Source: Thiohalomonadales bacterium
GTDB lineage: Bacteria > Pseudomonadota > Gammaproteobacteria > RBG-16-57-12
Direction of reading: 5' to 3'
Length of the DNA: 64,000 bases
NCBI GenBank assembly: GCA_050295955.1
Contig: JBNKQQ010000033.1
Span: 76,988 to 140,987 of the forward strand
The position numbers and the translations under genes are program-made. Of the stretch, positions 9,200 to 32,646 are shown one piece after another; the first letter of the stretch is position 1, and each line of letters opens with the position of its first letter. The notes below the pieces were generated by a model. The model did not search any database and was not told where the DNA came from. It was given only the letters and a program-made list of their open reading frames with translations.

Positions 9200-10564
9200 A
9201 TGCAAAAACTCTCTGTTGTGATCCTGGCTGCCGGCCAGGGAACCCGCATGAAATCCCATCTTCCCAAGGTCTTACACTGCGTAGGTGATCGCTCAATGCT
9301 TGAACATGCCTATGACCGTGCCAAAGCACTAAAAGCCAATGACATTCATATCGTGTATGGACATGGTGGTGAGCAGGTCAAAGCCACGCTAGCCCATCTT
9401 GACGCCGAATGGGTACTACAAGCAGAGCAGAAAGGAACAGGTCATGCCGTCGAGCAGGCTATGCCTGCCATCAGTGATGACGAGATGGTTTTGGTGCTAT
9501 ATGGCGATGTGCCTCTGGTCAGAGTTGAAACGCTGCAAGCGCTAGTTGAAGAGGCGAAGCAGAGCGGTTTCAGTTTGCTGACCGCATTCTTGGATAACCC
9601 TACCGGCTATGGCCGCATCATTCGTGATGAACAGGGGGCTGTAACACGCATTGTTGAGCAGAAAGATGCAACCCCTGAAGAATTGGCGGTGACGGAAGTT
9701 AATACCGGCATGCTGGCGGTTCAGGCAGGACGCTTACGGAAATGGATTCATGCGCTGGATAACAACAATGCCCAGGGTGAATTTTACCTGACAGACGTAA
9801 TTGGTATGGCGGCTACCTCGGGTGTCAAAATTAATACGGTCCACCCTACAACGATTGATGAAACGCTTGGCGCGAATAACCGGGTTCAGCTAGCGGAACT
9901 GGAGCGTTTTTTACAGCAACGTATCGCCAACGAATTAATGCTGGCAGGCGTTACTCTACGGGATCCGAACCGACTGGATGTTCGTGGAAATCTAACCGCT
10001 GGACAAGATGTCGAGATCGATATCAACGGCTTGTTTGAAGGCGAAGTGAAACTTGGTAATAACGTAAAGATTGGCGCTAACTGTATCCTGCGCAATTGCA
10101 CTATCGGTGATAATACAGTGATTGAAGCGAACTCACTGATCGAGAAAAGTGAAGTGGCCAGTGATTGTCATATCGGGCCTTTTGCGCGCTTGAGACCTGA
10201 TAGTAAACTTCATTCCGGTGCTAAGATAGGCAATTTTGTTGAAGTGAAGAAGTCCGTCATTGGTGCTGGCTCTAAGGTCAATCACCTAAGTTATATCGGA
10301 GATACAACCATGGGAGCCAACGTCAATATTGGTGCGGGTACCATCACCTGTAACTATGACGGCGTGAATAAATTCCAAACAATAATTGGGGATAATGCCT
10401 TTATCGGCTCCGACAGTCAGCTAGTTGCCCCAGTTGAAGTGGGCTCAGGCGCGACGATCGGCGCGGGTACCACATTAACCCGAAATGCCCCTGCTGATAC
10501 ACTAACCCTTAGTCGTAGTAAGCAGAAAAGTATAAACAGTTGGCAACGTCCAACTAAGAAGTAG
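9200..10564 (+). CDS. glmU: bifunctional UDP-GlcNAc pyrophosphorylase / GlcN-1-P acetyltransferase
   Basis: The N-terminal nucleotidyltransferase has LAAGQGTRMKS, and the C-terminal part is a left-handed beta-helix of hexapeptide repeats. Confidence 0.95.
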   Translation: MQKLSVVILAAGQGTRMKSHLPKVLHCVGDRSMLEHAYDRAKALKANDIHIVYGHGGEQVKATLAHLDAEWVLQAEQKGTGHAVEQAMPAISDDEMVLVLYGDVPLVRVETLQALVEEAKQSGFSLLTAFLDNPTGYGRIIRDEQGAVTRIVEQKDATPEELAVTEVNTGMLAVQAGRLRKWIHALDNNNAQGEFYLTDVIGMAATSGVKINTVHPTTIDETLGANNRVQLAELERFLQQRIANELMLAGVTLRDPNRLDVRGNLTAGQDVEIDINGLFEGEVKLGNNVKIGANCILRNCTIGDNTVIEANSLIEKSEVASDCHIGPFARLRPDSKLHSGAKIGNFVEVKKSVIGAGSKVNHLSYIGDTTMGANVNIGAGTITCNYDGVNKFQTIIGDNAFIGSDSQLVAPVEVGSGATIGAGTTLTRNAPADTLTLSRSKQKSINSWQRPTKK

Positions 10565-10580
10565 AGATTAGGAGAGCGCG

Positions 10581-12413
10581 ATGTGCGGGATCGTTGGTGC
10601 AGTGGCTGAACGTGATGTCACACCCATTTTGATAGAAGGGCTACGACGTCTGGAGTATCGAGGCTATGACTCTGCCGGGGTGGCAGTGTTGGATGAAGAG
10701 GGTTGTATCCGTCGAACCCGTGTTAAAGGGAAAGTGGCAGGATTGGCAGAAGCTATGCCAGAAGGCTTCAAAGGGGCAACGGGGATTGCCCATACCCGCT
10801 GGGCAACCCATGGTGAGCCTAGCCAAAGCAACGCCCACCCTCATATCTGCCGTGATCGTGTTGCGGTAGTGCACAACGGCATTATCGAAAACTACGAAGC
10901 CCTGCGAGAAGAGCAGAAAGCGCAAGGTCACCGCTTCACCTCCCAGACCGATACCGAAGTGATCGTACATCAGGTCTACAACTACCACAGTGACAACGGA
11001 CAGGATCTACTTGCTGCTGTGCAGAGTACTATCAAAGACTTACGTGGTGCCTATGCACTTGGTGTCATCAGCCATGACGAGCCAGGTCGTTTGATTGCCG
11101 CCCGAAGTGGCAGCCCACTGGTGGTTGGTGTCGGTATTGGTGAGTATTTCATTGCCTCCGATGTAGCCGCACTGCTTCCGGTAACCCAGCAATTTATCTT
11201 CCTGGAAGAGGGGGATGTAGCGGATATTAGCCGTGATGCCATCACCATCTATAACAAGCAGGGTGAGCAGGTAGAACGTCCTCTAAAGCGAAGCGAACTC
11301 ACCGCAGATGCTGTAGAGCGCGGTGAATTCCGCCACTACATGATAAAAGAGATTCACGAGCAGCCACGAGCCATTGCCGACACCTTAGAAGGGCGTATCT
11401 CAGAAACCCGTTTGCTGGAAGAGAGTTTTGGACCTAAAGCGGCTGAAATGCTCAACGGTGTTGAGCATGTCTACATCATCGCCTGTGGCACCTCATACCA
11501 TGCAGGTATGGTAGCTCGCTACTGGATTGAATCCATGGCGCGCATACCCTGCACTGTTGAAGTGGCCAGCGAGTTTCGCTATCGCAATCCAGTTGTACCC
11601 AACAACTGCCTGGTAATTTTTATCTCCCAGTCCGGTGAAACCGCTGACACCTTGGCCGCTTTGCGGGAGATCAGCGAAATGGGTATCCAGCGGACCCTGG
11701 CGATCTGCAATGTGCCAGAAAGCTCATTGGTGCGGGAAGCGGCACTGTCATTGATGACACGCGCAGGCCCAGAGATCGGTGTGGCATCCACTAAAGCATT
11801 TACCACCCAGCTGGTTGCTTTGCTGATGGTGACCATTGCGATTGCACGCCGTGGAAACCTGACAGAGCCGCAGGAAGCCGCCATCGTTAAAGAGCTGCGT
11901 ACACTGCCACGCAAAATAGAAGATGCACTACAGCTGGACAAAGCCATCTGTGAAATATCAGAACAGTTTGCAGATAAGCAACATGCCCTGTTTTTAGGGC
12001 GTGGCAATCAATATCCCATCGCCATGGAAGGGGCGCTAAAGCTAAAAGAGATCTCCTATATCCATGCGGAATCCTATCCTGCAGGCGAGCTGAAACACGG
12101 GCCATTAGCATTGGTAGATTCAGAAATGCCCGTCATCGTTGTTGCCCCCAATAACGAACTGTTAGAAAAGTTAAAAGCCAACATGCAAGAAGTAAAAGCC
12201 CGTGGCGGTAAGCTATTGGTATTTGCGGATCGCGAAGCGGCAATGGAGCAGGATGAAGGAATCCAAGTGCTGGATGTAGCACCAACAGATGACATCATTT
12301 CACCCATCATCTTCTCTGTACCGCTACAGCTGCTTTCCTATCACGTAGCTGTGCTGAAAGGCACAGATGTTGATCAGCCACGCAACTTAGCTAAGAGCGT
12401 AACTGTGGAGTAA
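10581..12413 (+). CDS. glmS: glutamine--fructose-6-phosphate aminotransferase
   Basis: The N-terminus MCGIVGAV has the Cys2 of a Ntn amidotransferase, and there are two SIS domains. It ends in the conserved VTVE. Confidence 0.97.
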
Positions 12414-12414
12414 G

Positions 12415-12476
12415 GGCGGGCACTGCCCGCCGGCATTGGCTGAATCAAGAGCCTTAGAGGTGATACATCTCTAAGG
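12415..12476 (+). terminator. glmS terminator (two hairpins, second followed by a T-run)
   Basis: The sequence gggcgggcactgcccgcc is followed by gccttagaggtgatacatctctaaggctttttt. Confidence 0.8.
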
Positions 12477-12530
12477 CTTTTTTATTGCCCAATTATCATT
12501 ATCAAAATAGAGGTACCCATGCTTTTATTT
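12415..12530. repeat. direct repeat copy A1 (glmS terminator region), paired with 14093..14215
   Basis: It is about 115 bp and roughly 85% identical to 14093..14215 by hand alignment. The shared stretch is cattgg(c/t)t(g/-)aatcaagagccttagaggtgat(a)catctctaaggctttttt...atcaaaatagaggta. Confidence 0.8.
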
Positions 12531-12829
12531 ATTTCCACCACGATAGGATGTGTGCCACTAGGTGACGCTGAATAGATGCTCGGTTCTGCCGGTACGACCA
12601 GCCCACTTTTGCAGGCTAAGCCTGCCATCTACTCCACAAATGGGTTGCCATACAAGGAAACAGACAAAGCATATCAATGGCATTGCATATATTCATGATT
12701 GCGCTACGCTATAAATGTATAAAGTGGACAAAAAAAGAGACATATATTTTCAAGTAAATATATAAGTAACTGAATTTTAATATTTTATTTAAAATAAAAA
12801 GTGGACATTTTTAGGGTCATATATCAGTA

Positions 12830-13987
12830 ATGGGTAGCAAGCAACAGCATCGTGTAGAAACTGATCGTTTCGGGCCTTTTACCTTTCAAGTTGGCGTTGA
12901 TACGTTATCTTTGGAGAGTTTGCTATTGCGTGTGGATGATGCCCACCAACGTTTCAAAAGCTCCCCCTTATCTCAAGTGGCTAATCGCCTGGAAAAAGAG
13001 GTGGTGGTTAGCAGTATCTTTGGCACCAATACCATAGAAGGTGGCACCCTTTCGATGGAGGAGACAGAGCAAGCACTGGATCTCCCGCCCTCTCAAGTAC
13101 AAGGTATTGAACAGCGCCGAGCTATCAATTTAAAGTGTGCCTATGAATTGGCACAAACCGCAGCAGTGCAACCAGGCTGGCAACTGAATATCGATTTTAT
13201 AAGAGAGATTCATGCCGCAGTGACTGATCAACTCCCCCATGAATACAACATGCCAGGAGTACTTAGGGATAATCCCAAAGGGACCATGACACGTGTAGGC
13301 AACCAAGAGCATGGAGGTGTTTACAAACCCCCTCAATATGGCAAAGATGTGGAAAGCCTGTTGAAGCATTTGATTGAATGGCATCAGCAGTTGATAGCAC
13401 AGGGAGTCTCAGTATTAATACGTGCACCGCTGGTGCATCTCTATTACGAATTGATCCATCCTTTCTGGGATGGTAACGGCCGGGTAGGCAGGGTGTTAGA
13501 GGCAACGTTACTACAGGCAGAGGGTTATAAATACGCACCCTTTGCCCAGGCGCGTTACTATCTTGAGAACATTCATCACTACTTCAGCCTATTCAATGCT
13601 TGTCGCAAGCAGGCGGAGAAAAACGCAGAAACTCCCAATACCGCGTTTGTTGCTTTTTTCCTTGAAGGGATGTTGAGCAGTATAAATACCCTGCATGACA
13701 GGGTGAACGCATTAATCAGCCTGATCCTATTTGAGAATGAAATAAAACGCCTGCACGATGAAAAGATCATAAACACCCGGCAATATGCCATCGTCACACA
13801 AATTCTTATAGCCGGAAAGCCGGTTTTTCTACCAGAATTAAGAAAATCTCCTTGGTACCAAGCGCTCTATATCAAGCTAACAGATAAAACCAAACAGCGG
13901 GACCTGAAGCATTTGCGAGAATTGGCATTGGTGAGATTAGATAGTGCTAATCGGTTATGGCCTGGATGTGTTGAAGAGGAGATGTAG
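12830..13987 (+). CDS. Fic-family protein (class II, with N-terminal inhibitory motif)
   Basis: It has the Fic active-site motif HPFWDGNGRVGR and an upstream TNTIEG matching the (S/T)xxxE(G/N) inhibitory helix. It is preceded by an AT-rich promoter-like region. Confidence 0.85.
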   Translation: MGSKQQHRVETDRFGPFTFQVGVDTLSLESLLLRVDDAHQRFKSSPLSQVANRLEKEVVVSSIFGTNTIEGGTLSMEETEQALDLPPSQVQGIEQRRAINLKCAYELAQTAAVQPGWQLNIDFIREIHAAVTDQLPHEYNMPGVLRDNPKGTMTRVGNQEHGGVYKPPQYGKDVESLLKHLIEWHQQLIAQGVSVLIRAPLVHLYYELIHPFWDGNGRVGRVLEATLLQAEGYKYAPFAQARYYLENIHHYFSLFNACRKQAEKNAETPNTAFVAFFLEGMLSSINTLHDRVNALISLILFENEIKRLHDEKIINTRQYAIVTQILIAGKPVFLPELRKSPWYQALYIKLTDKTKQRDLKHLRELALVRLDSANRLWPGCVEEEM

Positions 13988-14092
13988 ACGTTATCATTTT
14001 AGGGAGATGAATTGATATCGCTATATTTGGTGGAGCAGAGTGACGGTATTCAAGTATTGGATGTCGACCATCCTTGTAACTTAGTGGAGTAG

Positions 14093-14215
14093 GGGGGCAT
14101 CGCCCACCAGCATTGGTTAATCAAGAGCCTTAGAGGTGATCATCTCTAAGGCTTTTTTGTTGCTCGAAGCACCTCATAAGCTGCCAAATTTTCACCATCA
14201 AAATAGAGGTATTCA
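14093..14215. repeat. direct repeat copy A2 (second copy of the glmS terminator region)
   Basis: It is a near-duplicate of 12415..12530 and includes the same terminator hairpin gccttagaggtgatcatctctaaggctttttt. Confidence 0.8.
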
Positions 14216-14380
14216 AGGTGATATTTTTTAAGGTAATGTCTAGGGTAAGGGATTTTGTTCACCACCATTGCGATGAGGGAGATGATGGGCACGGGGAATA
14301 AGGATGGTGATTTTCTAGTATTGTGGGAGCCTCCTGCTTGCAGGCGATTGGGTTTGTTTCAGCAAACGCTGGAGGAATTG

Positions 14381-14690
14381 TATCACTGCGTGATGGTTTG
14401 TATTTATCGCTAGCGCGATGGAGGGGATGTCACTGCGTGACGGTGAATTGATACAGGGTTTCGCCCCCGCGCGACGAGTTCATTTTCTGTAACGCGACAG
14501 AAAACGAAACCAAAAGAACGCGCCCGAAAATACAGGTCACAAACAACGCGACTTCCCTCAGTTCTCGCTACGAATGGTACTACTGGCAACTGATTCGGGA
14601 CAGACATGCCATCCGCTTAACCCATTCGTAGCTGTGAGCCTCGGCTGCATTTAAACGGGATGTGAAAGGCATTTTATGTTTTGCTAATGC
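14381..14690. repeat. left inverted repeat (IR-L) of the STAND/recombinase element
   Basis: Its reverse complement aligns with 19685..19930. There is a ~100-bp near-identical core (cgacgagtt.attttctgtaacgcgacagaaaacgaaaccaaaagaac...cccgaaaatacaggtc) plus further similar flanks. The outer end carries two copies of tcactgcgtga, at 14383 and 14430. Confidence 0.8.
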
Positions 14691-14754
14691 AAAAGAAGAA
14701 GAGCGGCTTCGCGGTGTTTAATGGCTGGTTCTACTTCAGAGCGGACAAATTGAT

Positions 14755-14815
14755 GTAGGGTGGGCATCGCCCACCAGCGAGATGGAACGGTGGGCCGTGC
14801 CCACCCTATATGGCT
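14755..14815. repeat. REP-like palindromic element (tagggtgggcatcgcccacc ... ggtgggccgtgcccacccta)
   Basis: It is a long near-perfect palindrome. Related half-sites occur at 14093-14112 and 36536-36570. Confidence 0.6.
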
Positions 14816-15012
14816 GAAAAACCCGTTGGAGCCTTTGGTAGCTGATTGATTGAATGTCAGCTATCGGGTAGAGGGCAGCAAAGTCGCGAAAGCTGCCATT
14901 TATGACTTCATCTACAAATAAATAATTTGTGCCCAGCTATTTGGCACAATGCACTTTCAATATTAGGCTCAGCTAATGACAATTAGATTGTTATCTTACA
15001 AGGCAATACTTT

Positions 15013-18000
15013 ATGAATAGTCTCTGGGCTGTCCCAATATCGTCAGTTATTTCGCTTAGCCCTGAGCGGGCTGTAGATGTAATCCGTGCTATTCTCCGGG
15101 CAGAATGTGCCTACGCCAAGCTAGGCCCATCGGCATTAACTATTTCCGATAGACTAATGACCCCAGATGGCGGTATCGATGCAGAAGTCAACACATCCCA
15201 TGGACAAATCCCGGGAGATTGTATTTTTCAATCTGGTATTACCGGATTTCAGATTAAATCAGGAACCACATTCAAGCCTTGGACATCGAATTCAATCAGA
15301 GGTGAATTACTTAATAGTAAAGGGGAGTTATGCTCTGAGGTTGAGAGGCTTCTTAAACGAAAAGGTCACTACTCGATTATTTGCACTGGCCACGATCTGA
15401 CACCAGAGCAGCGTAATGATGCAAAAGCTCTGATCGTGGCTGTTCTGGCAGAAAAAGGATATGAAGAATACGAGCAGATTGTCGATGTTCTCGGAGCAAG
15501 TCAAATCGCAGAATTTTCTGAGCGCTATCCTGGAATAGCATCTCTATTGACGATTGATCCCGTTCAGGAAGCCTGGACTCTTGATGAGTGGCGACATGAC
15601 GCTCATATGACAAACGCATTCGAAGAGTCTCCGAAACAGACTGAAATAATCTCCCATATCCGCGCAGGCCTGTTGGGAGAAACTAAACATATTCGTATTC
15701 TTGGGGAAGCTGGCTTAGGTAAGACTCGAATCGTTCTTGAGTCATTGAAAGATGAGACCACCTCACCCTATGTTCTTTATATACAGCATGGTTCTCAGTT
15801 TGGTCAGACAAAACTTTTTCGCCAGTTACTGAAATCTGGTCATGACAAACCACTCATATTGGTCATAGATGAACTTCCTGAGAGCGAACTCTCAGATATA
15901 TGGAGGCATCTAAAGCCACGCTGTGGTCATTTGAAAATTGTTTCAATGGATCATGGACGAGATGAAACACGCGATGAAGAAATTGATCGAATAAATACGC
16001 CATATCTGTCAGACGATACAATTAAAAAGATACTTGCCCATCGCGTTGGGGAATCACCAGAGCTAGATCGGTGGATCAAAATCTGCGAAGGATCACCCCG
16101 AGTAGCCCAAGCCGTTGCTGACAATCTGTGCGCTAATCCCGCCGACTTATTAAAGCCACCAGCTACGATACCCATTTGGACAAGGTTTCTTCATGGATAT
16201 GGAAGCAGGGATGAAGCAAGTGCAAGGCAAATTGATTGTGTTGCACAGCATTTAGCACTATTCAGTCGGTTTGGTTATGAAGCTCCAGTTGGAGAGGAAG
16301 CAGCGTATATTGCTGAACTAATTCGCAATATTGACCCAACTATTGGCTGGGCTCGCTTTCAAGAAATAGTACAAGACCTTCGTGCGCGAAGAGTGTTACA
16401 AGGTAGTCGAACGCTATTTTTCGTTCCCAAGGCCCTGCATATCTATTTGTGGAAACAATTTTGGGAGCGTTATGGTCGAGGGTTTGATTTTACTCGAACA
16501 TTTTCCTCCATGCCGGAGTCTCTGCATACTTGGTTTATGAATATGTTCAAATATGCGGGTGAGGCTGATACTGCTCATGTTATTGATGATATTCTTAACT
16601 TAAAAGGCATTTTCTCTCAAAATGAGGTCATAAAATCAGAAAAGGGATCTCAGTTTCTAGCCATTCTAGCAGAGGCTAGTCCTGCTTCAGTATTGAGACT
16701 TCTTGAAGCTACTATTGGAAAATGGACTAACGAAGAATTGTTGAAATTAAGGGGAAATAGACAACATTTCGTCTGGACACTTGAGAAGATTGCGGTTTGG
16801 CCGAGCTACACTGTTAGAGCAATGCAACTGCTAATCCGATTGGCGGTTAATGAAAATGCTAGAAATTCTAATAACTCTACGGGAACGCTACTTGGCCTCT
16901 TTCGCATAGGCCCTGAGTGGGCTGCAACGGAATCCTCCCCTGATGCAAGACTCCCAGCTTTTCTGAAACTTCTTCGAGCTCAGAGTGATGCTGAGCGACA
17001 TCTTGGACTTAAAGCTGCAGAAGCATCGCTCGAAACCCGTGGCATGGGGTTTAGAACCGTTGGCCCTGAGTATCAGGGTTTAAAAGAAAGAGCAAAATTA
17101 TGGATGCCCGAAACATATGGTGATTGGTGGCAAGCTCAGTTCGTTTATTTTCAGACTTTGGTTAATGAAACAAAAAATTGGCCATCTCATCTTCGTCCTG
17201 AAGTTTGTAATGCATTACTTAATGCTGTTGAACACCAGATAAGAATACCACTATGTACGGAGCTAGCTTTTCAGGTACTAGATACACTTGTTAATGATGA
17301 TGCAATGCTGCCAGAAAAGTTAAATAGTTTCTTTTGGCATTGGAGAGAATATAAGGATGATGGTAAACATCCTGCAATAACAAAGAGACTACAAATACTT
17401 GAACGCCGCTACACGAGGCGTGACTTAGTAAGTCGATTTAATCGTTATGTGCTTGATGTGGATTGGCTCGAGTGGGAAGAGGGGCGTAGAGAGCAGAGAG
17501 GAAAGACTAGATCACGTGCAAAGGTAATTGTAAAAGTTTTGGCTCGCCGTATAGCGCGATCTCCTGAGAAGTTTAATGAAATTCGTCATCTTATTACTCC
17601 AGAGAAAAGTGCTCATGGGTTATGGTTTTTTGGAGAGCAGCTTGCAAAAAACGATGCTGATAGAATTTTTTTACCTCAACTCATTGAGGCTACCCTTACG
17701 GCTAAACACCAAACCTGTTTATACGGTTATCTTTCTGAATTAAGGAAAGACAATGAAGAGCTATACACTACAGCTATTAATGGTTTTCTTGATTCGGAAA
17801 GCACTGCTTGGTTAGGGGGACATATTGTACTTAGCTCCGATTACGATGATGATTTGTTTGTGAAGTGCTTGAATGTATTGCGTAAGGAATGGATTTCTCC
17901 CCAAGAGTTCAGCTCACTTCGATATGGGAAGTCAATAGATCACGTTCCTAAGGAACGGCTAGAAAATTTATTTCAACAATTAAATTCCCGTCAATCTGAG

Positions 18001-18786
18001 GAGTCTATGTGTTTATTGATCGAGTTACTGGACTCGATTCCATTTAACGAGTCCTCTCCAGTTGATTCAAAATTTGTATTTGGAGCGGTATCACGGTTTG
18101 TGCCTGGTGATGAAGGCGCAGAGCTAATGAGGGGATATCACTGGAAAAGTGTATGTCAAAAGTTAATTAAGTGGGATGAAAGCTGTGTATTACCTTTACT
18201 TGACGTTTTGCTTACTAAGATGGGAGACGTATATCGGTTAAGCTATGACTCGGATGTTGAGCCTCTTTCGGCCGAGTTAGTACAAGCAAATCCTTCAGGT
18301 GCTTGGGGAATTATAAAAGTGCATTTCGAAGAGACTCTCCCAAAATGGCGAGGTGATCTATTGAACTGGCTTAAAGGAGGGGTAGGAGGGTTTGAAGAAA
18401 GAGAGACTAGAGGAGTAATAAGGGATTTACCACTTCAGGAAATCCTTGAGTGGATAAATGAAAACCCTGAGTCTAGGGCTGGCCTTATAGCTCATGCTGT
18501 TCCTAGAACACTCGATGACGTAAACGGAGGAGAACTTACACGTGAGTTACTTCGTAAATACGGGCAGCTTCCCGGAGTTCAAAGCGGTATTAGTGCTAAT
18601 TTCCACTCTGGAGGGTGGAGTGGACCTACAAGTGCATATTTGAAACGTAAGAGGGAGAAATTTCGTCGATGGTTGGCTGCTGGATTTGATTATGAGATAA
18701 CTCAGTGGATTGAATCAGAGATTGAATACCTTGACCGAAATATAGAGCGCGAGGAAATTGATGAGGAACGCTCTCGATTCGATTAG
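15013..18786 (+). CDS. Avs-like antiviral STAND NTPase candidate with N-terminal Mrr-like (PD-(D/E)xK) nuclease domain
   Basis: The N-terminus has DGGIDAEV ... GFQIK, an Mrr_cat-like D...QxK motif. It has a Walker A ILGEAGLGKTR and a Walker B PLILVIDELPE. About 800 aa of helical C-terminus follows, which is probably a repeat/sensor region. Confidence 0.6.
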   Translation: MNSLWAVPISSVISLSPERAVDVIRAILRAECAYAKLGPSALTISDRLMTPDGGIDAEVNTSHGQIPGDCIFQSGITGFQIKSGTTFKPWTSNSIRGELLNSKGELCSEVERLLKRKGHYSIICTGHDLTPEQRNDAKALIVAVLAEKGYEEYEQIVDVLGASQIAEFSERYPGIASLLTIDPVQEAWTLDEWRHDAHMTNAFEESPKQTEIISHIRAGLLGETKHIRILGEAGLGKTRIVLESLKDETTSPYVLYIQHGSQFGQTKLFRQLLKSGHDKPLILVIDELPESELSDIWRHLKPRCGHLKIVSMDHGRDETRDEEIDRINTPYLSDDTIKKILAHRVGESPELDRWIKICEGSPRVAQAVADNLCANPADLLKPPATIPIWTRFLHGYGSRDEASARQIDCVAQHLALFSRFGYEAPVGEEAAYIAELIRNIDPTIGWARFQEIVQDLRARRVLQGSRTLFFVPKALHIYLWKQFWERYGRGFDFTRTFSSMPESLHTWFMNMFKYAGEADTAHVIDDILNLKGIFSQNEVIKSEKGSQFLAILAEASPASVLRLLEATIGKWTNEELLKLRGNRQHFVWTLEKIAVWPSYTVRAMQLLIRLAVNENARNSNNSTGTLLGLFRIGPEWAATESSPDARLPAFLKLLRAQSDAERHLGLKAAEASLETRGMGFRTVGPEYQGLKERAKLWMPETYGDWWQAQFVYFQTLVNETKNWPSHLRPEVCNALLNAVEHQIRIPLCTELAFQVLDTLVNDDAMLPEKLNSFFWHWREYKDDGKHPAITKRLQILERRYTRRDLVSRFNRYVLDVDWLEWEEGRREQRGKTRSRAKVIVKVLARRIARSPEKFNEIRHLITPEKSAHGLWFFGEQLAKNDADRIFLPQLIEATLTAKHQTCLYGYLSELRKDNEELYTTAINGFLDSESTAWLGGHIVLSSDYDDDLFVKCLNVLRKEWISPQEFSSLRYGKSIDHVPKERLENLFQQLNSRQSEESMCLLIELLDSIPFNESSPVDSKFVFGAVSRFVPGDEGAELMRGYHWKSVCQKLIKWDESCVLPLLDVLLTKMGDVYRLSYDSDVEPLSAELVQANPSGAWGIIKVHFEETLPKWRGDLLNWLKGGVGGFEERETRGVIRDLPLQEILEWINENPESRAGLIAHAVPRTLDDVNGGELTRELLRKYGQLPGVQSGISANFHSGGWSGPTSAYLKRKREKFRRWLAAGFDYEITQWIESEIEYLDRNIEREEIDEERSRFD

Positions 18787-18904
18787 TTTACTTCCAAGCA
18801 TATAGTCTTGATGCTTGTAAGGCCGTGATAGATTGAGTGAATTTACCGCTTTGTCTATGTTGCTGACTTCTAGAGCCCCTGGGTGAGTACCCAGGGGCTT
18901 TGTT

Positions 18905-19558
18905 TTAGACCTCTATCCTCTCTGATATTTCTAGTGCATCATCCACCTCAATCCCCAGATACCTGACAGTACTCTCTAGCTTGGTATGACCGAGGAGCAA
19001 TTGAATGGCTCTCAAGTTATGAGTTTGGTGGTAAATCAGCGATACCTTCGTCCTGCGCAATGAGTGAGTTCCATAATCAGCAGGATCTAGTCCTATATCA
19101 GTGACCCACTGCTCAACTATCCTGGCATATTGGCGAGTTGAGATATGAGGTGAATCATGAAAGCGACTTTGAAAGAGATAGTCATCATATTTCAAGGTCT
19201 GATGTGCTATCAGATTTGTTACTGCTATTCTCGTCTGATCAGTGATTTCAAATTGAACAGGCTGCTTGGTTTTCTGTTGCATGATCATGGCTCTTTTCAA
19301 TATAGATAAACCATGTGAGATGTCGCTGACTTTTAGGCTTACTAGGTCACAGCCCCGTAGCTTACTGTCGATGGCTAAATTGAATAGTGCGAGATCCCGG
19401 ATGTTGTTTGCCAGCTGAAGTCGTATGCGAATAGCCCAGATCTCTTGAAGCTTGAAGGGAAGTTTCTGCCCAACGAGCTTTCCTTTGTTCCAAGGGGAAT
19501 GGGGAGATGTTGATAGAGTGCTCATGTTGAATCCTCCATTTTGGTTTAGGGGATTCAA
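18905..19558 (-). CDS. short tyrosine site-specific recombinase (FimB/FimE-size, phage-integrase family catalytic domain)
   Basis: It is 217 aa. It has HSLRRT and LLGHTKLESTVRYL, consistent with the R...HxxR...Y catalytic residues, and it lacks the long N-terminal arm-binding domain of integrases. Confidence 0.75.
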   Translation of the reverse strand: MNPLNQNGGFNMSTLSTSPHSPWNKGKLVGQKLPFKLQEIWAIRIRLQLANNIRDLALFNLAIDSKLRGCDLVSLKVSDISHGLSILKRAMIMQQKTKQPVQFEITDQTRIAVTNLIAHQTLKYDDYLFQSRFHDSPHISTRQYARIVEQWVTDIGLDPADYGTHSLRRTKVSLIYHQTHNLRAIQLLLGHTKLESTVRYLGIEVDDALEISERIEV

Positions 19559-19684
19559 AGTATGGTAAAACAGAGGCTTACTTTCAGAGCGGACGTTCAG
19601 GGATTGTTGATGAACTACGCCTGCTGGCCGCTTGCGGCCATTTAATTTATATTGAAAATTCGCTCTTCTTCTTTCGTGTTAATG

Positions 19685-19930
19685 AAATATAAAATGACTT
19701 TCCTATCCCGTTCCAATGAAGCCGAGGCCCGCAGAAATCCTTGAATTAAGCCTTCGCTTGTTTGAGCGGTATTTGCGACCTGTATTTTCGGGTATGTTCT
19801 TTTGGTTTCGTTTTCTGTCGCGTTACAGAAAATAAACTCGTCGTGTGGGAACGAAACCCCCCATCAATACACATCACGAAGTGATACAAAATCTCATCGC
19901 CATAGTGATGAATTAAAAACATCGCTTACA
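19685..19930. repeat. right inverted repeat (IR-R) of the STAND/recombinase element
   Basis: It is the reverse complement of IR-L. The outer end carries tcacgaagtga and agtgatg motifs that mirror the paired 11-bp motifs in IR-L. Confidence 0.8.
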
Positions 19931-20071
19931 ACGCTTGGTAATTAGATGATATTCCACCCTACACGCCTATATTATGACGTATAATGTATACCCTATAAGT
20001 CACTACTGGGTTTGCTATCTAGTAGTGGTGTGATATCACCCATACTTCTATAAGACATAAGAAGATAACCA

Positions 20072-20302
20072 ATGAAAAAAGTAACCCTCTATACCACAAG
20101 TCGCTGCGAGGTGTGCAAACAGGCAAAGCAGTATTTCAAGAAGCGAAAGATTGCGTTTGTAGAGTTTGATGTTGAAAAGAGTAGTCGAGGAGCAAAGGAG
20201 TTTGCGCGTTATAAGGCACGGGGGGTACCGTTGATTGTGGTTGCTGGTGAGCCTCTTTATGGGTTTGATCGTAAACAGTTTGATGAGCTCTATTTTGAGT
20301 AA
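20072..20302 (+). CDS. glutaredoxin-family small redox protein
   Basis: It is 76 aa with a CEVC (CxxC) motif in a thioredoxin-fold context, as in the Grx/NrdH-like family. Confidence 0.7.
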   Translation: MKKVTLYTTSRCEVCKQAKQYFKKRKIAFVEFDVEKSSRGAKEFARYKARGVPLIVVAGEPLYGFDRKQFDELYFE

Positions 20303-20310
20303 ATGAACCT

Positions 20311-20378
20311 GTCGTGTGGGGGCAGCACCCCATATCAATCCAATGTCATGAAGTGACACTCACCCATCCACAGAAACA
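20311..20378. repeat. third (direct) copy of the element terminal sequence
   Basis: The sequence gtcgtgtggg..cccca.atcaat.ca..tca(c/t)gaagtgaca is about 75% identical to 19848..19915. Together with that copy it flanks the glutaredoxin gene. Confidence 0.6.
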
Positions 20379-21837: not shown

Positions 21838-24800
21838 CTAGGGCATGATTGTCACTGTGACGGTATCGCTATGCATCAGTTCTAAATCCATCACACCATC
21901 CATTTGGAACTCTACCCCGAAATGAAGGGTGTAAGTACCGCTAGGCAGGCCAGTTGCGTTTAGTACATCATAAGAGGATAAATCGAATAATGGCCCTTGA
22001 TGGGTAACCACCGCTTGGCTTGGAACCCAGCCCTGGTTCAGGGTGTAGTAATAGCGGCCTCCGGGGGTATCCGCCCATATCCACCACTCGGCATTGGCTC
22101 CCAAATAAGTGCCAGAGGCTAATGTTACAGTGACCAACAGGTTTTCATTCTGGCTAATATTGAGTGGCGTATCCAGGCCATTGGCCTTGATATCTGGCAC
22201 CGGATTGGTCGCTAAGCGTATCCCGTCACTGGTGCCGATGGCAGACCAGTAACCGTTGTTGTTTTGTGCGCGAACACTGAAAAAATACGGTTGGGATGGG
22301 ATTAAAGGTGTATTCATTAGACTGACGCTGCCAGAGGTTTGGCTTAGCGTAGGTTTCCAATCGCGGACATCCGCTTTGCCCGGGGCAGTACCGATGGCGT
22401 ATTCATATTCAGCAATTCCCCCGGTGTGTTGCGCACTCCAGGAAGCCGATAATGAGGTTTGTACATCGGTTACATCACCTTCATCTGTGACTTCGGGATG
22501 TTGTGGTGCCAGAAGCCCGCTGCGATTAGATGACAAGAGGTTGATTTCATTGTCGGTGGAGTGACCACTGTGCATGACGGGGAAGGCGGCCAGCTTTGTA
22601 CCGTCTTGATGGATTGTATATTCAATGCCGCCAGAAATGCTGTTCCATCCAAGGGGCTCTTTAATGAAAAGCGTGGGTATTGACCAGCTGGTGCCATCAA
22701 AGAGAGTTTCAAAGATCTGTGATTCGAAATACACCATGTTGGACTCTCGCTGTGAATAAGCGAGATGGAGGTTTCCATCTGGTGCGATGGCGGTGTCGAA
22801 AGCGACATAACCGGACTGACTTGAAACAACCGTTCGCGCATTAGACCAAGCATTGCCATCATGGATTCGATGAGCGAGTTCTGCCTTATTTGATGCCAGT
22901 GGGTTGGCGTAAAGCATATGCAGATTATCGGATGCGTCGATGTCCAGCGAGAATTTGGATGCATAAAGTACATTCGTGACAAATTCTGGTGATCCCCAGA
23001 TACCATTTGACCATTTCAGTAGGTAAGTGCCCCAATTTTCGAGAGATTGGCTATCGCCTTCTGACCAGGCCAGATAGCCCTGATTATTCGAATCAAATAA
23101 CAGCTTCAGGCCTGCATGGTAGTTAATATCCAGTGTTGTTTGAGCAATCAGGGTTTCACTTGACCAAGTGATGCCGTTATGAACTTTGTGATAGAACTCG
23201 GCATGACCGTTTCTGTAATCAGTCCATATGACATGGACTTGGCCATTGTTATCGACACCTATGCTGTTTTTTCCGTTAAACCCCCAAATATTCTGATCAA
23301 AGATTTCTGCATTGGTGGTGATTTGTTCCGGAGCACTCCAAGTGAGGTCTTGCGAATTTTGAACGGTATAAAATAATTCAGCATCCCATGGGGCGATATT
23401 TCCCGCGTAGACCACATGCACGTTGCCATTCGCATCGATGGTGGCACTAAAATCAGACTTTCCACCTGATATATTGGGAGCATCGGAAATCTCTTCTGCC
23501 GGTAACCAGTTACCGGATGCATCGACCGTTTTTGCATATACCAACGTACTGGCACCGTGGTTTTGTGTGATTACCACATGCCCGCCAGCGGCTCTGGTGA
23601 CTATTTTGGCCCCTACGTGACCATCAATAATATAGGGTCTTCCCAGGGCCGGGTGAGTATGTAAGAGAAAGGTATCACTGGAGATTATGCCGGATTGTGG
23701 TGACGAGATATCCAGTGTGAGAGCTGCCCAATGTTCTTTGGGGGTTGCCGGGTCAATGAGGAGCGTAATGGGGTCGCCTTGATTCGTTGCACTGACATTT
23801 TCCCCGATCGATGGGATAGCGGCTGTGTGATCGACCACAGAGATATAAGGGTCTGATGTGGTGAGTGAGACGGTGATATCGGTTTGTGGTAAACCAAAGT
23901 TTTTTACAGTAGGTTTCAGGTGAATTGTCTCACCGGGGTCAAGATAGCCATCAATGTTGCCTGATTGCTCTTCCGGCCAAATGCTGATGACGCTGAGTTT
24001 TGTGGGAGAGGTGGAAAGTTGTACTGAAGCGGCGGCATCGACGCGTCCTGCACCAAATTGGTTTACGTCATCGGGGTTGGCAGAATTAATATTGGCTGCC
24101 GTGGCAAGTAAATGGCGTTCAATCTGATCTGCATTCCAATCAGGGTGAGCGGCTTTCACTAGGGCGGCAACCCCTGCAATAACCGGTGAAGCCATGCTGG
24201 TTCCCGACATGTAACCGTAGCTACCATTAACCGTTGTGCTGTAGATGCTGCTCCCGGGGGCGGCAATATCAACCCAGACACCATGGTTGGTAAAATGGGC
24301 TCTGTCATCGGAACTGCTTTGGGTGGCGGCAACGGAAATGACACCCTCAAAATTGGCGGGATATTGTGGGCGATCAGAGCTATCGTTGCCTGCGGCGGCA
24401 ACGAGTAGCACACCTGCGCTTATACAATAGTCGATAGCCACTTTTTGAGTATGCGTGCTATAAGGGCTGCCAAAGCTCATATTGACAATGTCTGCACCAT
24501 TGTCGGCGGCATAAATCAGTGCTGCGGCTGTATCGGTAATTTGGAGCACACCGCTACCGCTAGTACTTTTGTAACCGGCGCGTAGTGGCATAAGGCTGAC
24601 ATTCCAGTTCACCCCTGTCACACCTAGTCCGTTGTTGCCATCTGCCCCCACAATTCCGGCGACATGCGTACCGTGTCCTTGAACGTCCATTGGGTCGTTA
24701 TCCGCAGGCCCAGCATCTTCACCGGCAAAGACCGAACTGGCAGAGACGGAGACAAAATCCCAGCCGCGAATGTCATCAATGAAGCCATTGCCATCATTGT

Positions 24801-25536
24801 CCGCATTGTCCCCTTCGATTTCGTCGCTATTGCGCCAGATATTGCTGGAGAGGTCTTCATGGGACCAGTTCACACCGGTATCTATAATCGCAACCACTAC
24901 GTTATGGCTGCCGGTTGTTACGTCCCAGGCGTTTGCGGCATCGATTCTGGCGAAATATCGTTGTGTTCCATAGCTTGGGTCGTTGGGCTGTGTCGCTTGT
25001 GTGTACTGCAAGTAGTTGGGTTCAGCAAATTCGATGTTGGGGTCATTTTGATATTCTGCCATCGCCTGCAAAACATCTGTGCCCTTGCCAAGTTTGATCT
25101 TGTAAATGCGCTGTAGGCTTTTTCGCATCTGCTTGGCTTTTTCTGGTAAATCCGCTCGAGGCATTTTGCTTCCTTGCAAAATGGATTGCATCTGGCTGAC
25201 TTCAAACCGCTTATGTAATATGTCTAAAGAGGGAATGCCGGTGATGATGTGGTTGTTAGCGCCCAGGCGAACAGGAGTTTCTTGCTCGCTTTTTAGCTTA
25301 ATAATGATTTCACTGTCCACAAAGGCTGGGGGTGAATTATCGGCTTGATTGGGTTTCGATGCCGGATTGGCATTGCCGTTGACGATGGCGTGGTGGTTGC
25401 CATTTGGGCTGATATCGTATGTGGTATTGATATCGGTTTGCACGCTGCTGCTATTTTGTCCTAAAACACTTCCGGCCCCTGTCAGCAGGGCCAGAGTGGG
25501 GATTGCGGTTAAAAATAAACGATAAGCTTTAGTCAT
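21838..25536 (-). CDS. secreted subtilisin-like serine protease (S8) with large C-terminal beta-propeller-like repeat region
   Basis: It has the signal peptide MTKAYRLFLTAIPTLALLTGAGSVLG and the catalytic triad motifs DTGV, HGTHVAG and GTSMASP. Repeated D-x-N-G-x-(V/L)H-(V/L)-x-(Y/W) units occur in the C-terminal half. Confidence 0.85.
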   Translation of the reverse strand: MTKAYRLFLTAIPTLALLTGAGSVLGQNSSSVQTDINTTYDISPNGNHHAIVNGNANPASKPNQADNSPPAFVDSEIIIKLKSEQETPVRLGANNHIITGIPSLDILHKRFEVSQMQSILQGSKMPRADLPEKAKQMRKSLQRIYKIKLGKGTDVLQAMAEYQNDPNIEFAEPNYLQYTQATQPNDPSYGTQRYFARIDAANAWDVTTGSHNVVVAIIDTGVNWSHEDLSSNIWRNSDEIEGDNADNDGNGFIDDIRGWDFVSVSASSVFAGEDAGPADNDPMDVQGHGTHVAGIVGADGNNGLGVTGVNWNVSLMPLRAGYKSTSGSGVLQITDTAAALIYAADNGADIVNMSFGSPYSTHTQKVAIDYCISAGVLLVAAAGNDSSDRPQYPANFEGVISVAATQSSSDDRAHFTNHGVWVDIAAPGSSIYSTTVNGSYGYMSGTSMASPVIAGVAALVKAAHPDWNADQIERHLLATAANINSANPDDVNQFGAGRVDAAASVQLSTSPTKLSVISIWPEEQSGNIDGYLDPGETIHLKPTVKNFGLPQTDITVSLTTSDPYISVVDHTAAIPSIGENVSATNQGDPITLLIDPATPKEHWAALTLDISSPQSGIISSDTFLLHTHPALGRPYIIDGHVGAKIVTRAAGGHVVITQNHGASTLVYAKTVDASGNWLPAEEISDAPNISGGKSDFSATIDANGNVHVVYAGNIAPWDAELFYTVQNSQDLTWSAPEQITTNAEIFDQNIWGFNGKNSIGVDNNGQVHVIWTDYRNGHAEFYHKVHNGITWSSETLIAQTTLDINYHAGLKLLFDSNNQGYLAWSEGDSQSLENWGTYLLKWSNGIWGSPEFVTNVLYASKFSLDIDASDNLHMLYANPLASNKAELAHRIHDGNAWSNARTVVSSQSGYVAFDTAIAPDGNLHLAYSQRESNMVYFESQIFETLFDGTSWSIPTLFIKEPLGWNSISGGIEYTIHQDGTKLAAFPVMHSGHSTDNEINLLSSNRSGLLAPQHPEVTDEGDVTDVQTSLSASWSAQHTGGIAEYEYAIGTAPGKADVRDWKPTLSQTSGSVSLMNTPLIPSQPYFFSVRAQNNNGYWSAIGTSDGIRLATNPVPDIKANGLDTPLNISQNENLLVTVTLASGTYLGANAEWWIWADTPGGRYYYTLNQGWVPSQAVVTHQGPLFDLSSYDVLNATGLPSGTYTLHFGVEFQMDGVMDLELMHSDTVTVTIMP

Positions 25537-31955: not shown

Positions 31956-32026
31956 TAACAACATATGTATATTATTGACAATTTGTTGTTTGTAGATATG
32001 CTTATATGTATGACATATAGAGCGAG

Positions 32027-32598: not shown

Positions 32599-32646
32599 TG
32601 GTTACTAATGTTAAATAGACTAATCAAGGTAGATATCCTCAATAAC

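What the first reader, a model, noticed from the sequence alone, without database searches (positions are those of the whole stretch)
14381..19930. Inverted-repeat-bounded 5.5-kb unit: Mrr-nuclease/STAND NTPase (Avs-like) plus short tyrosine recombinase
Two genes sit between ~250–290-bp imperfect inverted repeats: IR-L 14381–14690 and IR-R 19685–19930. The shared core cgacgagtt.attttctgtaacgcgacagaaaacgaaaccaaaagaac...cccgaaaatacaggtc is nearly identical between the two, by hand alignment. One gene, 15013–18786, encodes a 1257-aa protein. Its first ~150 aa carry an Mrr_cat-like motif (DGGIDAEV...GFQIK), followed by a Walker A (GEAGLGKTR), a Walker B (LILVIDEL) and a ~800-aa helical tail. That is the domain order of antiviral STAND (Avs) proteins. 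The other gene, 18905–19558, encodes a 217-aa FimB/E-sized tyrosine recombinase with HxxR...Y. Each outer repeat end carries two copies of an 11-bp near-palindrome (tcactgcgtga / tcacgaagtga) about 45 bp apart, which look like recombinase binding and crossover sites. Long inverted repeats plus a small tyrosine recombinase is the architecture of DNA-inversion switches such as the pneumococcal hsdS shufflon. Alternatively the unit could be a small self-mobilising defence element. In either case a recombinase-coupled STAND defence gene next to glmS has not, to my knowledge, been described.
Basis: partly seen in the sequence, partly recalled or inferred. Interest (0 to 1): 0.88.

Follow-up and report, generated by a model that had tools for sequence, protein, structure and literature searches.

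The report
Avs8 defence gene, recombinase, inverted repeats
The inverted repeats and both genes are real, but comparison with other genomes shows a known type of single-gene antiviral sensor (Avs8/PD-lambda-4) sitting beside an unrelated small mobile recombinase module in an insertion hotspot after glmS, not a conserved recombinase-coupled defence element.

Summary
Diverged inverted repeats (IR-L about 14360-14705, IR-R about 19938-19661) bracket a 1257-aa gene and a small tyrosine recombinase gene. They share a 67-nt core with only 4 mismatches.

The large protein belongs to the PD-lambda-4/Avs8 antiviral STAND family. It has a PD-(D/E)xK nuclease head, a STAND NTPase and a long tail. The recombinase is 206 aa (ATG at 19525), has only the catalytic domain, and keeps all catalytic residues.

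The idea of a coupled unit is not supported:
- Homologues of the STAND gene at 65-100% identity sit alone in many other contexts, several looking like integron cassettes. DNA homology there stops at the ORF ends.
- The recombinase belongs to a compact module of about 0.79 kb (18853-19641), found in more than 550 species without the repeat or the STAND gene.
- The repeat was found nowhere else.
- The outer 75-90 nt of the repeat occurs four times around the island, in orientation ++--.
- The neighbouring SoFic gene is bounded by a duplicated glmS 3' end.

The most likely reading is a lineage-specific mosaic in a glmS insertion hotspot. Inversion of the bracketed segment remains possible (about 20%) but is untested.

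The parts
10581..12413 (+). glmS. Its 3' end is the anchor of the insertion hotspot.
   Evidence: 610-aa ORF with an MCGIVG... GlmS sequence. It follows an atp-operon-sized run of ORFs (not checked by any search) and a 454-aa ORF.
12363..12520 (+). Direct repeat DR-a: the last ~50 nt of glmS, its terminator hairpin, and ...ATCAAAATAGAGGTA.
   Evidence: Aligns with 14044-14214. The repeat finder family D4.
12522..12609 (+). c1: partial copy of the outer part of the inverted repeat.
   Evidence: nhmmer E 2.3e-05 against the IR profile; alignment A3.
12830..13987 (+). Fic-domain gene of the SoFic defence type.
   Evidence: Pfam Fic 1.8e-13; PADLOC SoFic 4e-37.
14044..14214 (+). Direct repeat DR-b: a degenerate second copy of the glmS 3' end with its terminator (hairpin at 14123-14156).
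   Evidence: Alignment A5. Terminator-like site, 15-bp stem followed by a T run.
14360..14705 (+). IR-L. It contains c2 (about 14397-14490), two TCACTGCGTGA palindromes (14383, 14430) and the conserved core 14472-14538, which has the dyad AGTTCATTTTCTGT-AACGCG-ACAGAAAACGAAAC.
14753..14811 (.). REP-like GC-rich palindromes (GGTGGGCATCGCCCACC type) between IR-L and the STAND gene.
   Evidence: Inverted repeat I4 and direct repeat D5.
15013..18786 (+). Avs8/PD-lambda-4-type antiviral STAND gene (1257 aa). Nuclease about aa 1-180, NTPase about aa 205-400 (Walker A 231-239, Walker B 281-288), then a long tail of about 850 aa that was not modelled here.
18853..19641 (-). Self-contained recombinase module. 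Parts: left site region GGCCGCAAGCGGCCAGCAGGCGTAG (19615-19641), a leader with a 16-nt-arm palindrome, the gene, a terminator hairpin, and the right-end box AGAAGTCAGCAACATAGAC (18853-18871).
   Evidence: Homology with L001-L004, L018, L103 and L005 begins and ends at these points, whatever the flanks.
18905..19525 (-). Tyrosine recombinase of 206 aa with a catalytic domain only. R, K, HxxR, H and Y are all conserved.
   Evidence: Pfam Phage_integrase 1.9e-18; alignment A2; more than 8000 homologues of 206-208 aa.
19661..19938 (-). IR-R. It contains c3, one TCACTTCGTGA palindrome (19874-19884) and the core 19843-19777. Its inner end lies about 20 nt from the recombinase module border.
20072..20302 (+). 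Glutaredoxin-like gene (76 aa), lying between c3 and c4.
   Evidence: Pfam Glutaredoxin 1.2e-12. Direct repeat D1, 19827-19871 / 20298-20342.
20296..20366 (-). c4: partial copy of the outer part of the inverted repeat. It overlaps the glutaredoxin stop codon.
   Evidence: nhmmer E 3.6e-10; alignment A3.

Best explanation
The interval is a lineage-specific mosaic in an insertion hotspot at the 3' end of glmS. It is not a dedicated element. It holds three independent things.

1. **A stand-alone antiviral STAND gene of the Avs8/PD-lambda-4 family.** By analogy with that family (inferred, not shown here), the long C-terminal sensor binds a newly made phage major capsid protein. The NTPase then drives oligomerisation, and the N-terminal PD-(D/E)xK nuclease cuts DNA, aborting the infection.

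2. **A separately mobile module of about 0.79 kb.** It encodes a 206-aa tyrosine recombinase with only a catalytic domain. The module carries its own short sites and recombines at a point about 106 bp upstream of its start codon.

3. **Two old, diverged inverted copies of a local repeat.** The outer 75-90 nt of this repeat occurs four times around the island, in orientation ++--. It probably marks repeated insertion or rearrangement at this hotspot, as an att-like or operator-bearing sequence. The 67-nt conserved core is kept by selection or by gene conversion.

The STAND gene needs neither the recombinase nor the repeats to work or to move.

For: **STAND gene moves alone (shown).**
- 519 homologues were found. 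The best 120 are 61-100% identical and almost all 1257-1258 aa, from gamma-, beta- and deltaproteobacteria. The 90%-identity cluster of the window protein includes a Shewanella algae protein.
- The contexts differ completely and hold no small recombinase.
- DNA homology spans only 15010-18784, even at 89-91% identity.
- In L019/L020 versus L021/L022 the same 5' leader plus ORF follows two different attC-like palindromes, ending at GTTATAC. L016 has a GTATAAC...GTTAGCC site downstream. The gene therefore travels as an integron cassette elsewhere.

**Recombinase module is independent (shown).**
- Homology to relatives covers only 18845-19641.
- L001, L003 and L018 are 98.4-99.98% identical through the module and about 10 kb downstream. 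They carry three different sequences from position -106 upstream.
- At least 554 hits were found among species-representative genomes.
- The neighbours are heterogeneous.

**The repeat belongs to neither gene (shown).** No hit in 157 fetched loci, in genome, metagenome or viral scans, or in plasmids.

**Hotspot (shown).** The glmS 3' end plus terminator is duplicated around the SoFic gene. There are four c copies.
Against: - A 38-nt perfect run, and 63 of 67 identities, inside repeats that are otherwise about 66% identical needs an explanation. The core also has the 14-6-14 dyad geometry of a lox/FRT/dif-type site.
- A catalytically intact invertase-sized recombinase lies inside the repeat pair, with its module border about 20 nt from IR-R.
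- Other members of the family are flanked by inverted repeats or occur as inverted pairs around cargo (L058, L109).
- No close relative of this genome could be retrieved, so the absence of orientation variants is absence of data, not evidence against inversion.
- The origin of the ++-- arrangement is not reconstructed.
Confidence: 0.5

Rival explanations
1. Inversion switch. The 206-aa recombinase (or RecA acting on the 38-nt identical run) flips the 5.2-kb segment between IR-L and IR-R. This changes which flanking transcription reaches the Avs8 gene and the recombinase gene, giving phase-variable, cost-limiting expression of an abortive-infection nuclease.
For: - The repeat pair has a strongly conserved core of lox-like geometry.
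- The invertase-sized recombinase has all catalytic residues, plus a weak NCBIfam match to tyrosine-type DNA invertase.
- In L044, L087, L040, L059, L094, L097 and L035 the recombinase gene is flanked by 25-80-nt inverted repeats.
- Near-identical genomes differ exactly at the site upstream of the gene, so the family is recombinationally active.
- A strong terminator lies just outside IR-L, so the orientation could matter.
Against: - The core does not resemble the family's sites (CGGCCAGAAGCGGCC next to a hairpin). No site of that kind scores near the repeats.
- The repeats are diverged, carry a 41-50-nt indel and have fuzzy ends, so the duplication is old.
- No promoter-like site lies outside or inside the repeats that would make inversion matter.
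- No orientation variant was found anywhere.
- Long repeats are not a family feature: no inverted pair of 28 nt or more in the four loci first checked (L001, L003, L005, L008). Later scans did find 25-80-nt repeats beside the gene in some loci.
Confidence: 0.2
2. Shared regulatory leader. The repeat copies are duplicated promoter or operator regions. Each full or partial copy lies upstream of a gene and mostly points towards it: c1 to SoFic, c2 to Avs8, c3 to the recombinase. The GTCAC-N3-GTGAC palindrome would be the operator of one regulator that co-controls the island genes.
For: - Orientation of three of the four copies relative to the next gene.
- Symmetry-preserving changes in the palindrome: ATCAC...GTGAT in c3 against GTCAC...GTGAC in c2.
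- A fifth perfect 17-nt palindrome, GTGTCACGAAGTGACAC, lies in an unrelated intergenic region at 46699.
Against: - No sigma-70-like promoter was found in the repeats.
- c4 points away from the next gene.
- No candidate regulator gene lies in the island.
- One chance match to TCACNNNGTGA is expected in the window (0.81).
- This reading does not explain the separately conserved 67-nt core.
Confidence: 0.15
3. Decayed transposon-like elements with long terminal inverted repeats. IR-L and IR-R would be the ends of a 5.5-kb element carrying Avs8. It would be nested inside an older 7.8-kb element of the same kind whose ends survive as c1 and c4. This would give the ++-- pattern downstream of glmS, the classic Tn7-type target.
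For: - The ++-- order of the four copies is what nesting of elements with terminal inverted repeats produces.
- The location is downstream of glmS.
- IR-L holds two direct copies of an 18-nt motif, as in multi-site transposon ends (family D12).
Against: - No transposase genes (no tnsABC/D-like ORFs) lie between 12.4 and 20.4 kb.
- There are no sharp ends and no target-site duplication.
- The putative outer element contains a copy of the glmS 3' end, which points to site-specific or homologous integration rather than transposition.
- The repeat is absent from every collection searched.
Confidence: 0.1

Closest known systems
Avs8 / PD-lambda-4 (antiviral STAND; Vassallo et al. 2022 selection, renamed Avs8 in bioRxiv 10.64898/2026.01.04.697583)
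   Same: - Matches the PD-Lambda-4_A profile over about 1000 residues.
- Single-gene system with a STAND NTPase carrying Walker A and B motifs.
- N-terminal nuclease effector and a long C-terminal region (not modelled here).
- Lies in a defence context, next to SoFic.
   Different: - The match is moderate (108 bits), so this is a distant branch of the family.
- It forms its own tight, widely transferred clade of 1257-1258-aa proteins.
- Neither the trigger nor defence activity has been tested for it.
Integron gene cassettes carrying defence genes (sedentary chromosomal integrons as defence biobanks; bioRxiv 10.1101/2024.07.02.601686)
   Same: Close homologues of this very gene (about 86-90% protein identity or more) appear to lie in cassette arrays bounded by attC-like palindromes (L013, L016, L019-L022).
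   Different: The window has no attC site beside the gene and no IntI. The 206-aa recombinase is not an integron integrase: NCBIfam integrase_gron scores 16 bits against a cut-off of 265.
FimB/FimE-type and Hin-type inversion switches, and hsdS invertons
   Same: A small tyrosine recombinase with little more than a catalytic domain lies next to inverted repeats. As with Hin, the recombinase gene lies inside the repeat-bounded segment.
   Different: - The repeats here are about 300 nt and diverged, not short and identical.
- The segment holds a whole 3.8-kb gene rather than a promoter or alternative gene halves.
- No second orientation has been seen.
REP/RAYT 'REPtron'-like and integron-like arrangements (comparison for the recombinase family, not for the window unit)
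   Same: In other genomes the recombinase gene is flanked by inverted hairpin-plus-tail sites. In Massilia (L049, L054), palindromic copies of about 75 nt follow many small ORFs on both sides of the gene.
   Different: The enzyme is a tyrosine recombinase, neither a HUH transposase nor an IntI. The window itself has no such array.
Islands integrated at the 3' end of glmS / the attTn7 region
   Same: The glmS 3' end and terminator are duplicated around inserted DNA, and defence cargo has accumulated there.
   Different: There are no Tn7-like transposition genes. No integrase of the usual size (300-400 aa) lies among the ORFs of 60 aa or more listed up to 24 kb.

Membership tests
Avs (antiviral STAND), subfamily Avs8/PD-lambda-4 | Significant match to the family profile. 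| tested here: met
   PADLOC PDLC03991 PD-Lambda-4_A, E 5.7e-32, residues 12-1001 against profile positions 11-1021 of 1283. No Pfam or NCBIfam family matches.
Avs (antiviral STAND), subfamily Avs8/PD-lambda-4 | [quoted passage not shown] | tested here: met
   GEAGLGKTR and LILVIDEL are conserved in 26 homologues. The AF2 model of residues 1-400 (pLDDT 76) matches the ZAR1 resistosome, Apaf-1, CED-4, Avs4 (8dgf) and Avs3 (8dgc).
Avs (antiviral STAND), subfamily Avs8/PD-lambda-4 | N-terminal effector domain; here the claim is an Mrr-like PD-(D/E)xK nuclease. | tested here: met
Avs (antiviral STAND), subfamily Avs8/PD-lambda-4 | C-terminal repeat sensor that binds a phage protein (major capsid protein for Avs8), and protection against phage. 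| not testable with these tools
   Only the profile match extends into the tail.
Site-specific DNA inversion switch (fim, hin or shufflon type) | Recombinase with a complete catalytic set. | tested here: met
   R (DSKLR), K (QQKTK), H-x-x-R (THSLRR), H (LLGH) and Y (VRYLG) are invariant in 13 sequences.
Site-specific DNA inversion switch (fim, hin or shufflon type) | A pair of inverted sites bounding the segment. | tested here: met
   IR-L and IR-R share a 67-nt core.
Site-specific DNA inversion switch (fim, hin or shufflon type) | The inverted sites are the cognate sites of the adjacent recombinase. | tested here: not met
   A weight matrix built from 15 family sites (self-scores 21-39 bits) scores at most 11 bits near the module and gives nothing in the repeats. 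The test is indirect, because this subfamily's own sites are diverged.
Site-specific DNA inversion switch (fim, hin or shufflon type) | Both orientations found in a population or among close relatives. | not testable with these tools
   No other sequence carrying the repeat was found. No reads are available.
Integron | IntI-type integrase with attI, and attC-bounded cassettes. | tested here: not met
   The recombinase is 206 aa. NCBIfam integrase_gron scores 16.4 bits against a cut-off of 265. No attC-like site flanks the STAND gene in the window.
Tn7-like transposon at attTn7 | tnsA/B/C plus target-selector genes, defined ends and a 5-bp duplication downstream of glmS. | tested here: not met
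   ORFs between 12.4 and 20.4 kb are only Fic, the STAND gene, the recombinase and glutaredoxin. The ends are fuzzy and there is no duplication.
Island integrated at a gene's 3' end (att duplication) | A direct repeat containing the target gene's 3' end on both sides of the insert. | tested here: met
   This holds for the SoFic segment only: 12363-12520 against 14044-14214. It does not hold for the repeat-bounded unit.

The most novel reading that the evidence does not exclude
The 206-aa recombinase belongs to a very widespread, uncharacterised family of self-contained modules of about 0.8 kb. These modules recombine at their own hairpin-plus-CGGCCAGAAGCGGCC sites. They rearrange the DNA just upstream of themselves in near-identical strains, and in some genomes (Massilia) they sit between two outward-facing arrays of small ORFs, each followed by a palindromic site of about 75 nt. 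That would be an integron-like or REPtron-like system run by a minimal tyrosine recombinase. In this genome the module would use the 330-nt repeats to flip or shuffle an Avs8 gene, making antiviral immunity phase-variable.
Probability: 0.15. Interest if true: 0.75.

Novelty: new member of a known kind. Interest (0 to 1): 0.38.

Why it matters
As filed, the finding adds one more Avs8-type gene in a glmS-linked defence island, which is ordinary.

Two things could matter.
- If the repeat pair really inverts, it would be a rare case of a whole STAND immune receptor under recombinase-driven phase variation. That bears on how bacteria limit the cost of abortive-infection genes.
- The small recombinase family is abundant (more than 8000 near-full-length relatives; more than 550 species representatives) and has no described function. 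The evidence here for site-specific rearrangement, and for site-bounded ORF arrays, makes it a testable candidate for a new gene-shuffling system.

The same STAND gene appears to be an integron cassette in some genomes and is repeat-flanked here. This illustrates how single-gene defences hop between mobile platforms.

Tried and rejected
1. **Structured RNA in the repeats.** Rfam gave nothing at gathering scores and only two chance-level hits in E-value mode. Folding z-scores were -0.01 to -1.7. Rejected.
2. **Repeat as a companion of the recombinase.** BLAST and nhmmer against 157 loci gave nothing. Rejected.
3. **Repeat as a companion of the STAND gene.** Homology ends at the ORF. Rejected.
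4. **Repeat as a common genome-wide or public repeat.** The window has only the four clustered copies. Exact-pattern scans of genomes, metagenomes (two patterns), viral contigs and a plasmid BLAST were all empty. The scans need exact matches, so diverged copies would be missed.
5. **Recombinase module as an insertion that split a longer IR-R.** The apparent match CAGAGCGGACAAATTGA / CAAAGCGGTAAATTCA is no better than shuffled sequence: score 16 against a mean of 15.1. Dropped.
6. **Family-type sites in the window.** Only a weak palindrome, GGCCGCAAGCGGCC, at the module border.
7. **Small ORF in IR-L (14410-14607, minus strand).** No family match, and it is broken by the indel in IR-R. Rejected.
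8. **Close relatives of this genome through the glutaredoxin cluster.** The look-up failed.
9. **TTCAGAGCGGAC as a recombination site.** It occurs three times (14735, 19583, 47658). Suggestive, but left unresolved.

Full report
**Observation**

The window runs through a series of atp-operon-sized ORFs (not checked by any search) into glmS (10581-12413). After glmS come:
- a Fic gene (12830-13987);
- a 1257-aa ORF (15013-18786, plus strand);
- a small ORF on the minus strand (18905-19558);
- a glutaredoxin-like gene (20072-20302);
- cytochrome c' and cytochrome b561 genes.

The repeat finder reports inverted arms at 14443-14549 / 19766-19872 (107 nt, 86%) and 14615-14705 / 19661-19751 (91 nt, 75%). 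A global alignment extends the pair to about 14360-14705 and 19938-19661. Overall identity is 66%, with a 41-50-nt indel in the middle.

Inside the pair lies a 67-nt block (14472-14538 / 19843-19777) with only four mismatches and a perfect run of 38 nt. Its 29-mer occurs exactly twice in 64 kb, against none expected. The block contains the dyad AGTTCATTTTCTGT-AACGCG-ACAGAAAACGAAAC.

Two details need changing. IR-R has one intact TCACNNNGTGA palindrome, not two. The recombinase almost certainly starts at the ATG at 19525, giving 206 aa like its relatives.

**The large gene**

No Pfam or NCBIfam model matches. The PADLOC model PD-Lambda-4_A matches residues 12-1001 at 5.7e-32. A 2026 preprint renames PD-lambda-4 as Avs8 and shows that it is a STAND protein triggered by phage major capsid proteins.

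The family is a known defence family.

**Does the gene travel with the recombinase or the repeats?**

It does not. The protein search found 519 relatives. The best 120 are 61-100% identical and nearly all 1257-1258 aa. They come from Rugosibacter, Citrifermentans, Undibacterium, Sedimenticola and many metagenomes, and the 90%-identity cluster of the window protein includes a Shewanella algae protein. This is a tight clade that has clearly been transferred horizontally.

In every context fetched, the neighbours differ: restriction-modification genes, Gabija-like genes, TIR genes, HicAB, or small hypothetical ORFs. None has a small recombinase. DNA similarity to the window covers 15010-18784 and nothing more, even at 89-91% identity.

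In L019/L020 and L021/L022 the same 88-nt leader plus ORF follows two different imperfect palindromes with integron attC hallmarks (GCTTAAC...GTTATAC; CATTAAC...GTTATAC). L016 has GTATAAC...GTTAGCC downstream. So elsewhere this gene appears to be an integron cassette. This fits recent reports of defence genes in integrons.

**The recombinase**

Pfam Phage_integrase covers residues 50-201 of the 217-aa ORF call. Only about 38 residues precede the catalytic domain, as in FimB/FimE. R, K, HxxR, H and Y are invariant.

More than 8000 relatives at over 70% identity were returned. At least 554 hits were confirmed among species-representative genomes, mostly Proteobacteria, and 53 viral-contig loci carry it.

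Homology between the window and its closest relatives (83-84% DNA identity) runs only from 19641 to 18845-18853. That is about 110 nt upstream of the ATG to about 55 nt past the stop, whatever the flanks. This defines a module of about 0.79 kb with four parts:
- a left site region, GGCCGCAAGCGGCCAGCAGGCGTAG;
- a leader with a palindrome of 16-nt arms;
- a terminator hairpin;
- a right-end box, AGAAGTCAGCAACATAGAC.

L001, L003 and L018 are 98.4-99.98% identical across the module and about 10 kb downstream. Yet they carry three unrelated sequences from position -106 upstream. Recombination at that point is therefore recent and recurrent.

In other branches of the family the gene is flanked by 25-80-nt inverted repeats with the consensus GTCGCTnnCCGGCCAGAAGCGGCC. 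Sites of this kind fall off with distance from the gene: 8.2 per 10 kb within 200 bp, 0.9 at 0.2-1 kb, and 0.27-0.28 beyond 5 kb. In Massilia loci L049 and L054, palindromic versions of about 75 nt follow many small ORFs in two arrays that face away from the recombinase. L058 and L109 carry two inverted, outward-facing copies of the module around miscellaneous cargo.

The nearest neighbours in 59 loci are heterogeneous. A minority are defence genes: LmuA, Avs1a, SIR2/ThsA, Gabija, SoFic. None is related to the window's STAND gene.

The recombinase is thus an independent and probably mobile module. It tends to sit in variable regions and is not a partner of Avs8.

**The repeats themselves**

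They were not found next to any recombinase or STAND homologue. They were also absent from exact-pattern scans of genomes, metagenomes and viral contigs, and from plasmids. They match no Rfam family and do not fold better than shuffled sequence.

A profile of the two copies finds two further partial copies of the outer 75-90 nt: c1 at 12522-12609 (+) and c4 at 20366-20296 (-). The four copies are therefore ordered ++--. They separate glmS | SoFic | Avs8 plus recombinase | glutaredoxin | cytochrome c'.

The copies share three features: a GTCAC-N3-GTGAC palindrome, TGAATTGAT, and a GGGG-loop-CCCC hairpin followed by ACGACnAG. One symmetry-preserving change occurs in the palindrome (ATCAC...GTGAT in c3) and one compensatory change in the hairpin (CGG/CCG in c1).

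Separately, the last ~50 nt of glmS together with its terminator (12363-12520) is repeated at 14044-14214. The SoFic segment is thus an insertion bounded by an att-like duplication of the glmS 3' end.

The locus is therefore a hotspot that has been hit repeatedly.

**Interpretation**

The best-supported reading (about 50%) is a lineage-specific mosaic made of three parts:
- a stand-alone Avs8-type gene;
- an independent recombinase module whose left border lies about 20 nt from the inner end of IR-R;
- two old copies of a local repeat.

The mechanism assigned to the Avs8 gene is inferred from the family and not shown here: capsid-protein sensing, oligomerisation, then nuclease activation.

In its favour:
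- the strongly conserved lox-like core;
- an intact invertase-sized enzyme inside the pair;
- the family's evident activity and its frequent association with inverted repeats.

Against it:
- the core does not resemble the family's sites;
- the repeats are diverged;
- no promoter logic is visible;
- no second orientation could be looked for.

Two lesser rivals remain. One is a shared operator or leader (about 15%). The other is nested, decayed elements with long terminal repeats (about 10%).

**Novelty and score**

The genes are members of known kinds. Avs genes on mobile platforms and defence islands at glmS are both established. The specific repeat-bounded arrangement is unique but unproven as a functional unit, so it is filed as a new member of a known kind, with moderate interest.

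The side observations on the small recombinase family are the most promising lead and deserve their own follow-up: the self-contained modules, strain-level rearrangement at -106, and the site-bounded ORF arrays.

Noticed in passing
window 12363-12520 and 14044-14214: The 3' end of glmS plus its terminator hairpin is duplicated as a direct repeat around the SoFic gene. The second copy has a 15-nt deletion and a pseudo stop codon. This looks like attL/attR of an island integrated into the glmS 3' end, yet no integrase lies inside the segment.
   Followed up: partly
window 12522-12609 (+), 14397-14490 (+), about 19938-19790 (-), 20366-20296 (-): Four copies of an element of about 75-90 nt (GTCAC-N3-GTGAC, TGAATTGAT, GGGG-loop-CCCC hairpin, ACGACnAG), in orientation ++--. 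All lie within 8 kb downstream of glmS. Origin and function are unknown.
   Followed up: partly
L001 9893, L003 6916, L018 325 (about 106-115 nt upstream of the recombinase ATG): Three metagenomic genomes that are 98.4-99.98% identical across the recombinase and about 10 kb downstream have three unrelated upstream flanks. The break is at the same CGGCCA site each time, which points to recent site-specific rearrangement.
   Followed up: partly
L049 3778-18023 and L054 (Massilia): Two outward-facing arrays of small ORFs (80-170 aa) lie on either side of the 206-aa recombinase gene. Each ORF is followed within 20-80 nt by an imperfect palindrome of about 75 nt (GTCCGCTTTGG...CCAGAAGCGGAC, often followed by GTT). 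The layout is integron-like, but no IntI lies within 10 kb.
   Followed up: partly
L044, L087, L040, L059, L094, L097, L035 (about -49 to -209 upstream and +4 to +202 downstream of the recombinase gene, varying by locus): In many genomes the recombinase gene is tightly flanked by 25-80-nt inverted repeats (GTCGCTAACCGGCCAGAAGCGGCC type). The downstream copy overlaps the terminator hairpin. The arrangement resembles Hin or an IS element.
   Followed up: partly
L058 2997-3864 / 9852-10719; L109 2312-2880 / 5057-5625: Two inverted, outward-facing copies of the recombinase module (99.65% identical in L058) bracket 6 kb and 2.2 kb of miscellaneous cargo, including an IS110 transposase, a methyltransferase and unknown ORFs.
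   Followed up: partly
L013, L016, L019-L022 flanks of the STAND gene: Close homologues of the window's Avs8-type gene lie between attC-like palindromes (R'' GCTTAAC or GTATAAC, R' GTTATAC or GTTAGCC). The same leader plus ORF follows different attC sites in different contigs, so the gene behaves as an integron cassette there.
   Followed up: partly
window 46699-46715: A perfect 17-nt palindrome, GTGTCACGAAGTGACAC, lies between the genes read as cysN (GTP_EFTU domains, beside a PAPS_reduct gene) and a CN-hydrolase gene. It resembles the palindrome of the c elements. The 12-mer TTCAGAGCGGAC occurs three times (14735, 19583, 47658) against 0.24 expected.
   Followed up: no
window 14092-14111, 14753-14811: GC-rich REP-like palindromes (GGTGGGCATCGCCCACC) lie in the intergenic DNA of the island.
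   Followed up: no
window 31847-31961 / 32633-32747; 33504-33603; 35927-35968 / 36429-36470; 61693-61791: Other repeats in the window. A 115-nt direct repeat at 83% identity, 786 nt apart. A 50-nt tandem pair. A 42-nt direct repeat 502 nt apart. A palindromic block of CGCAAAGA-type short repeats.
   Followed up: no
window 21838-25551 (-): A 1237-aa secreted subtilisin-like protease ORF with long C-terminal repeat domains lies just beyond the island. It was not examined.
   Followed up: no
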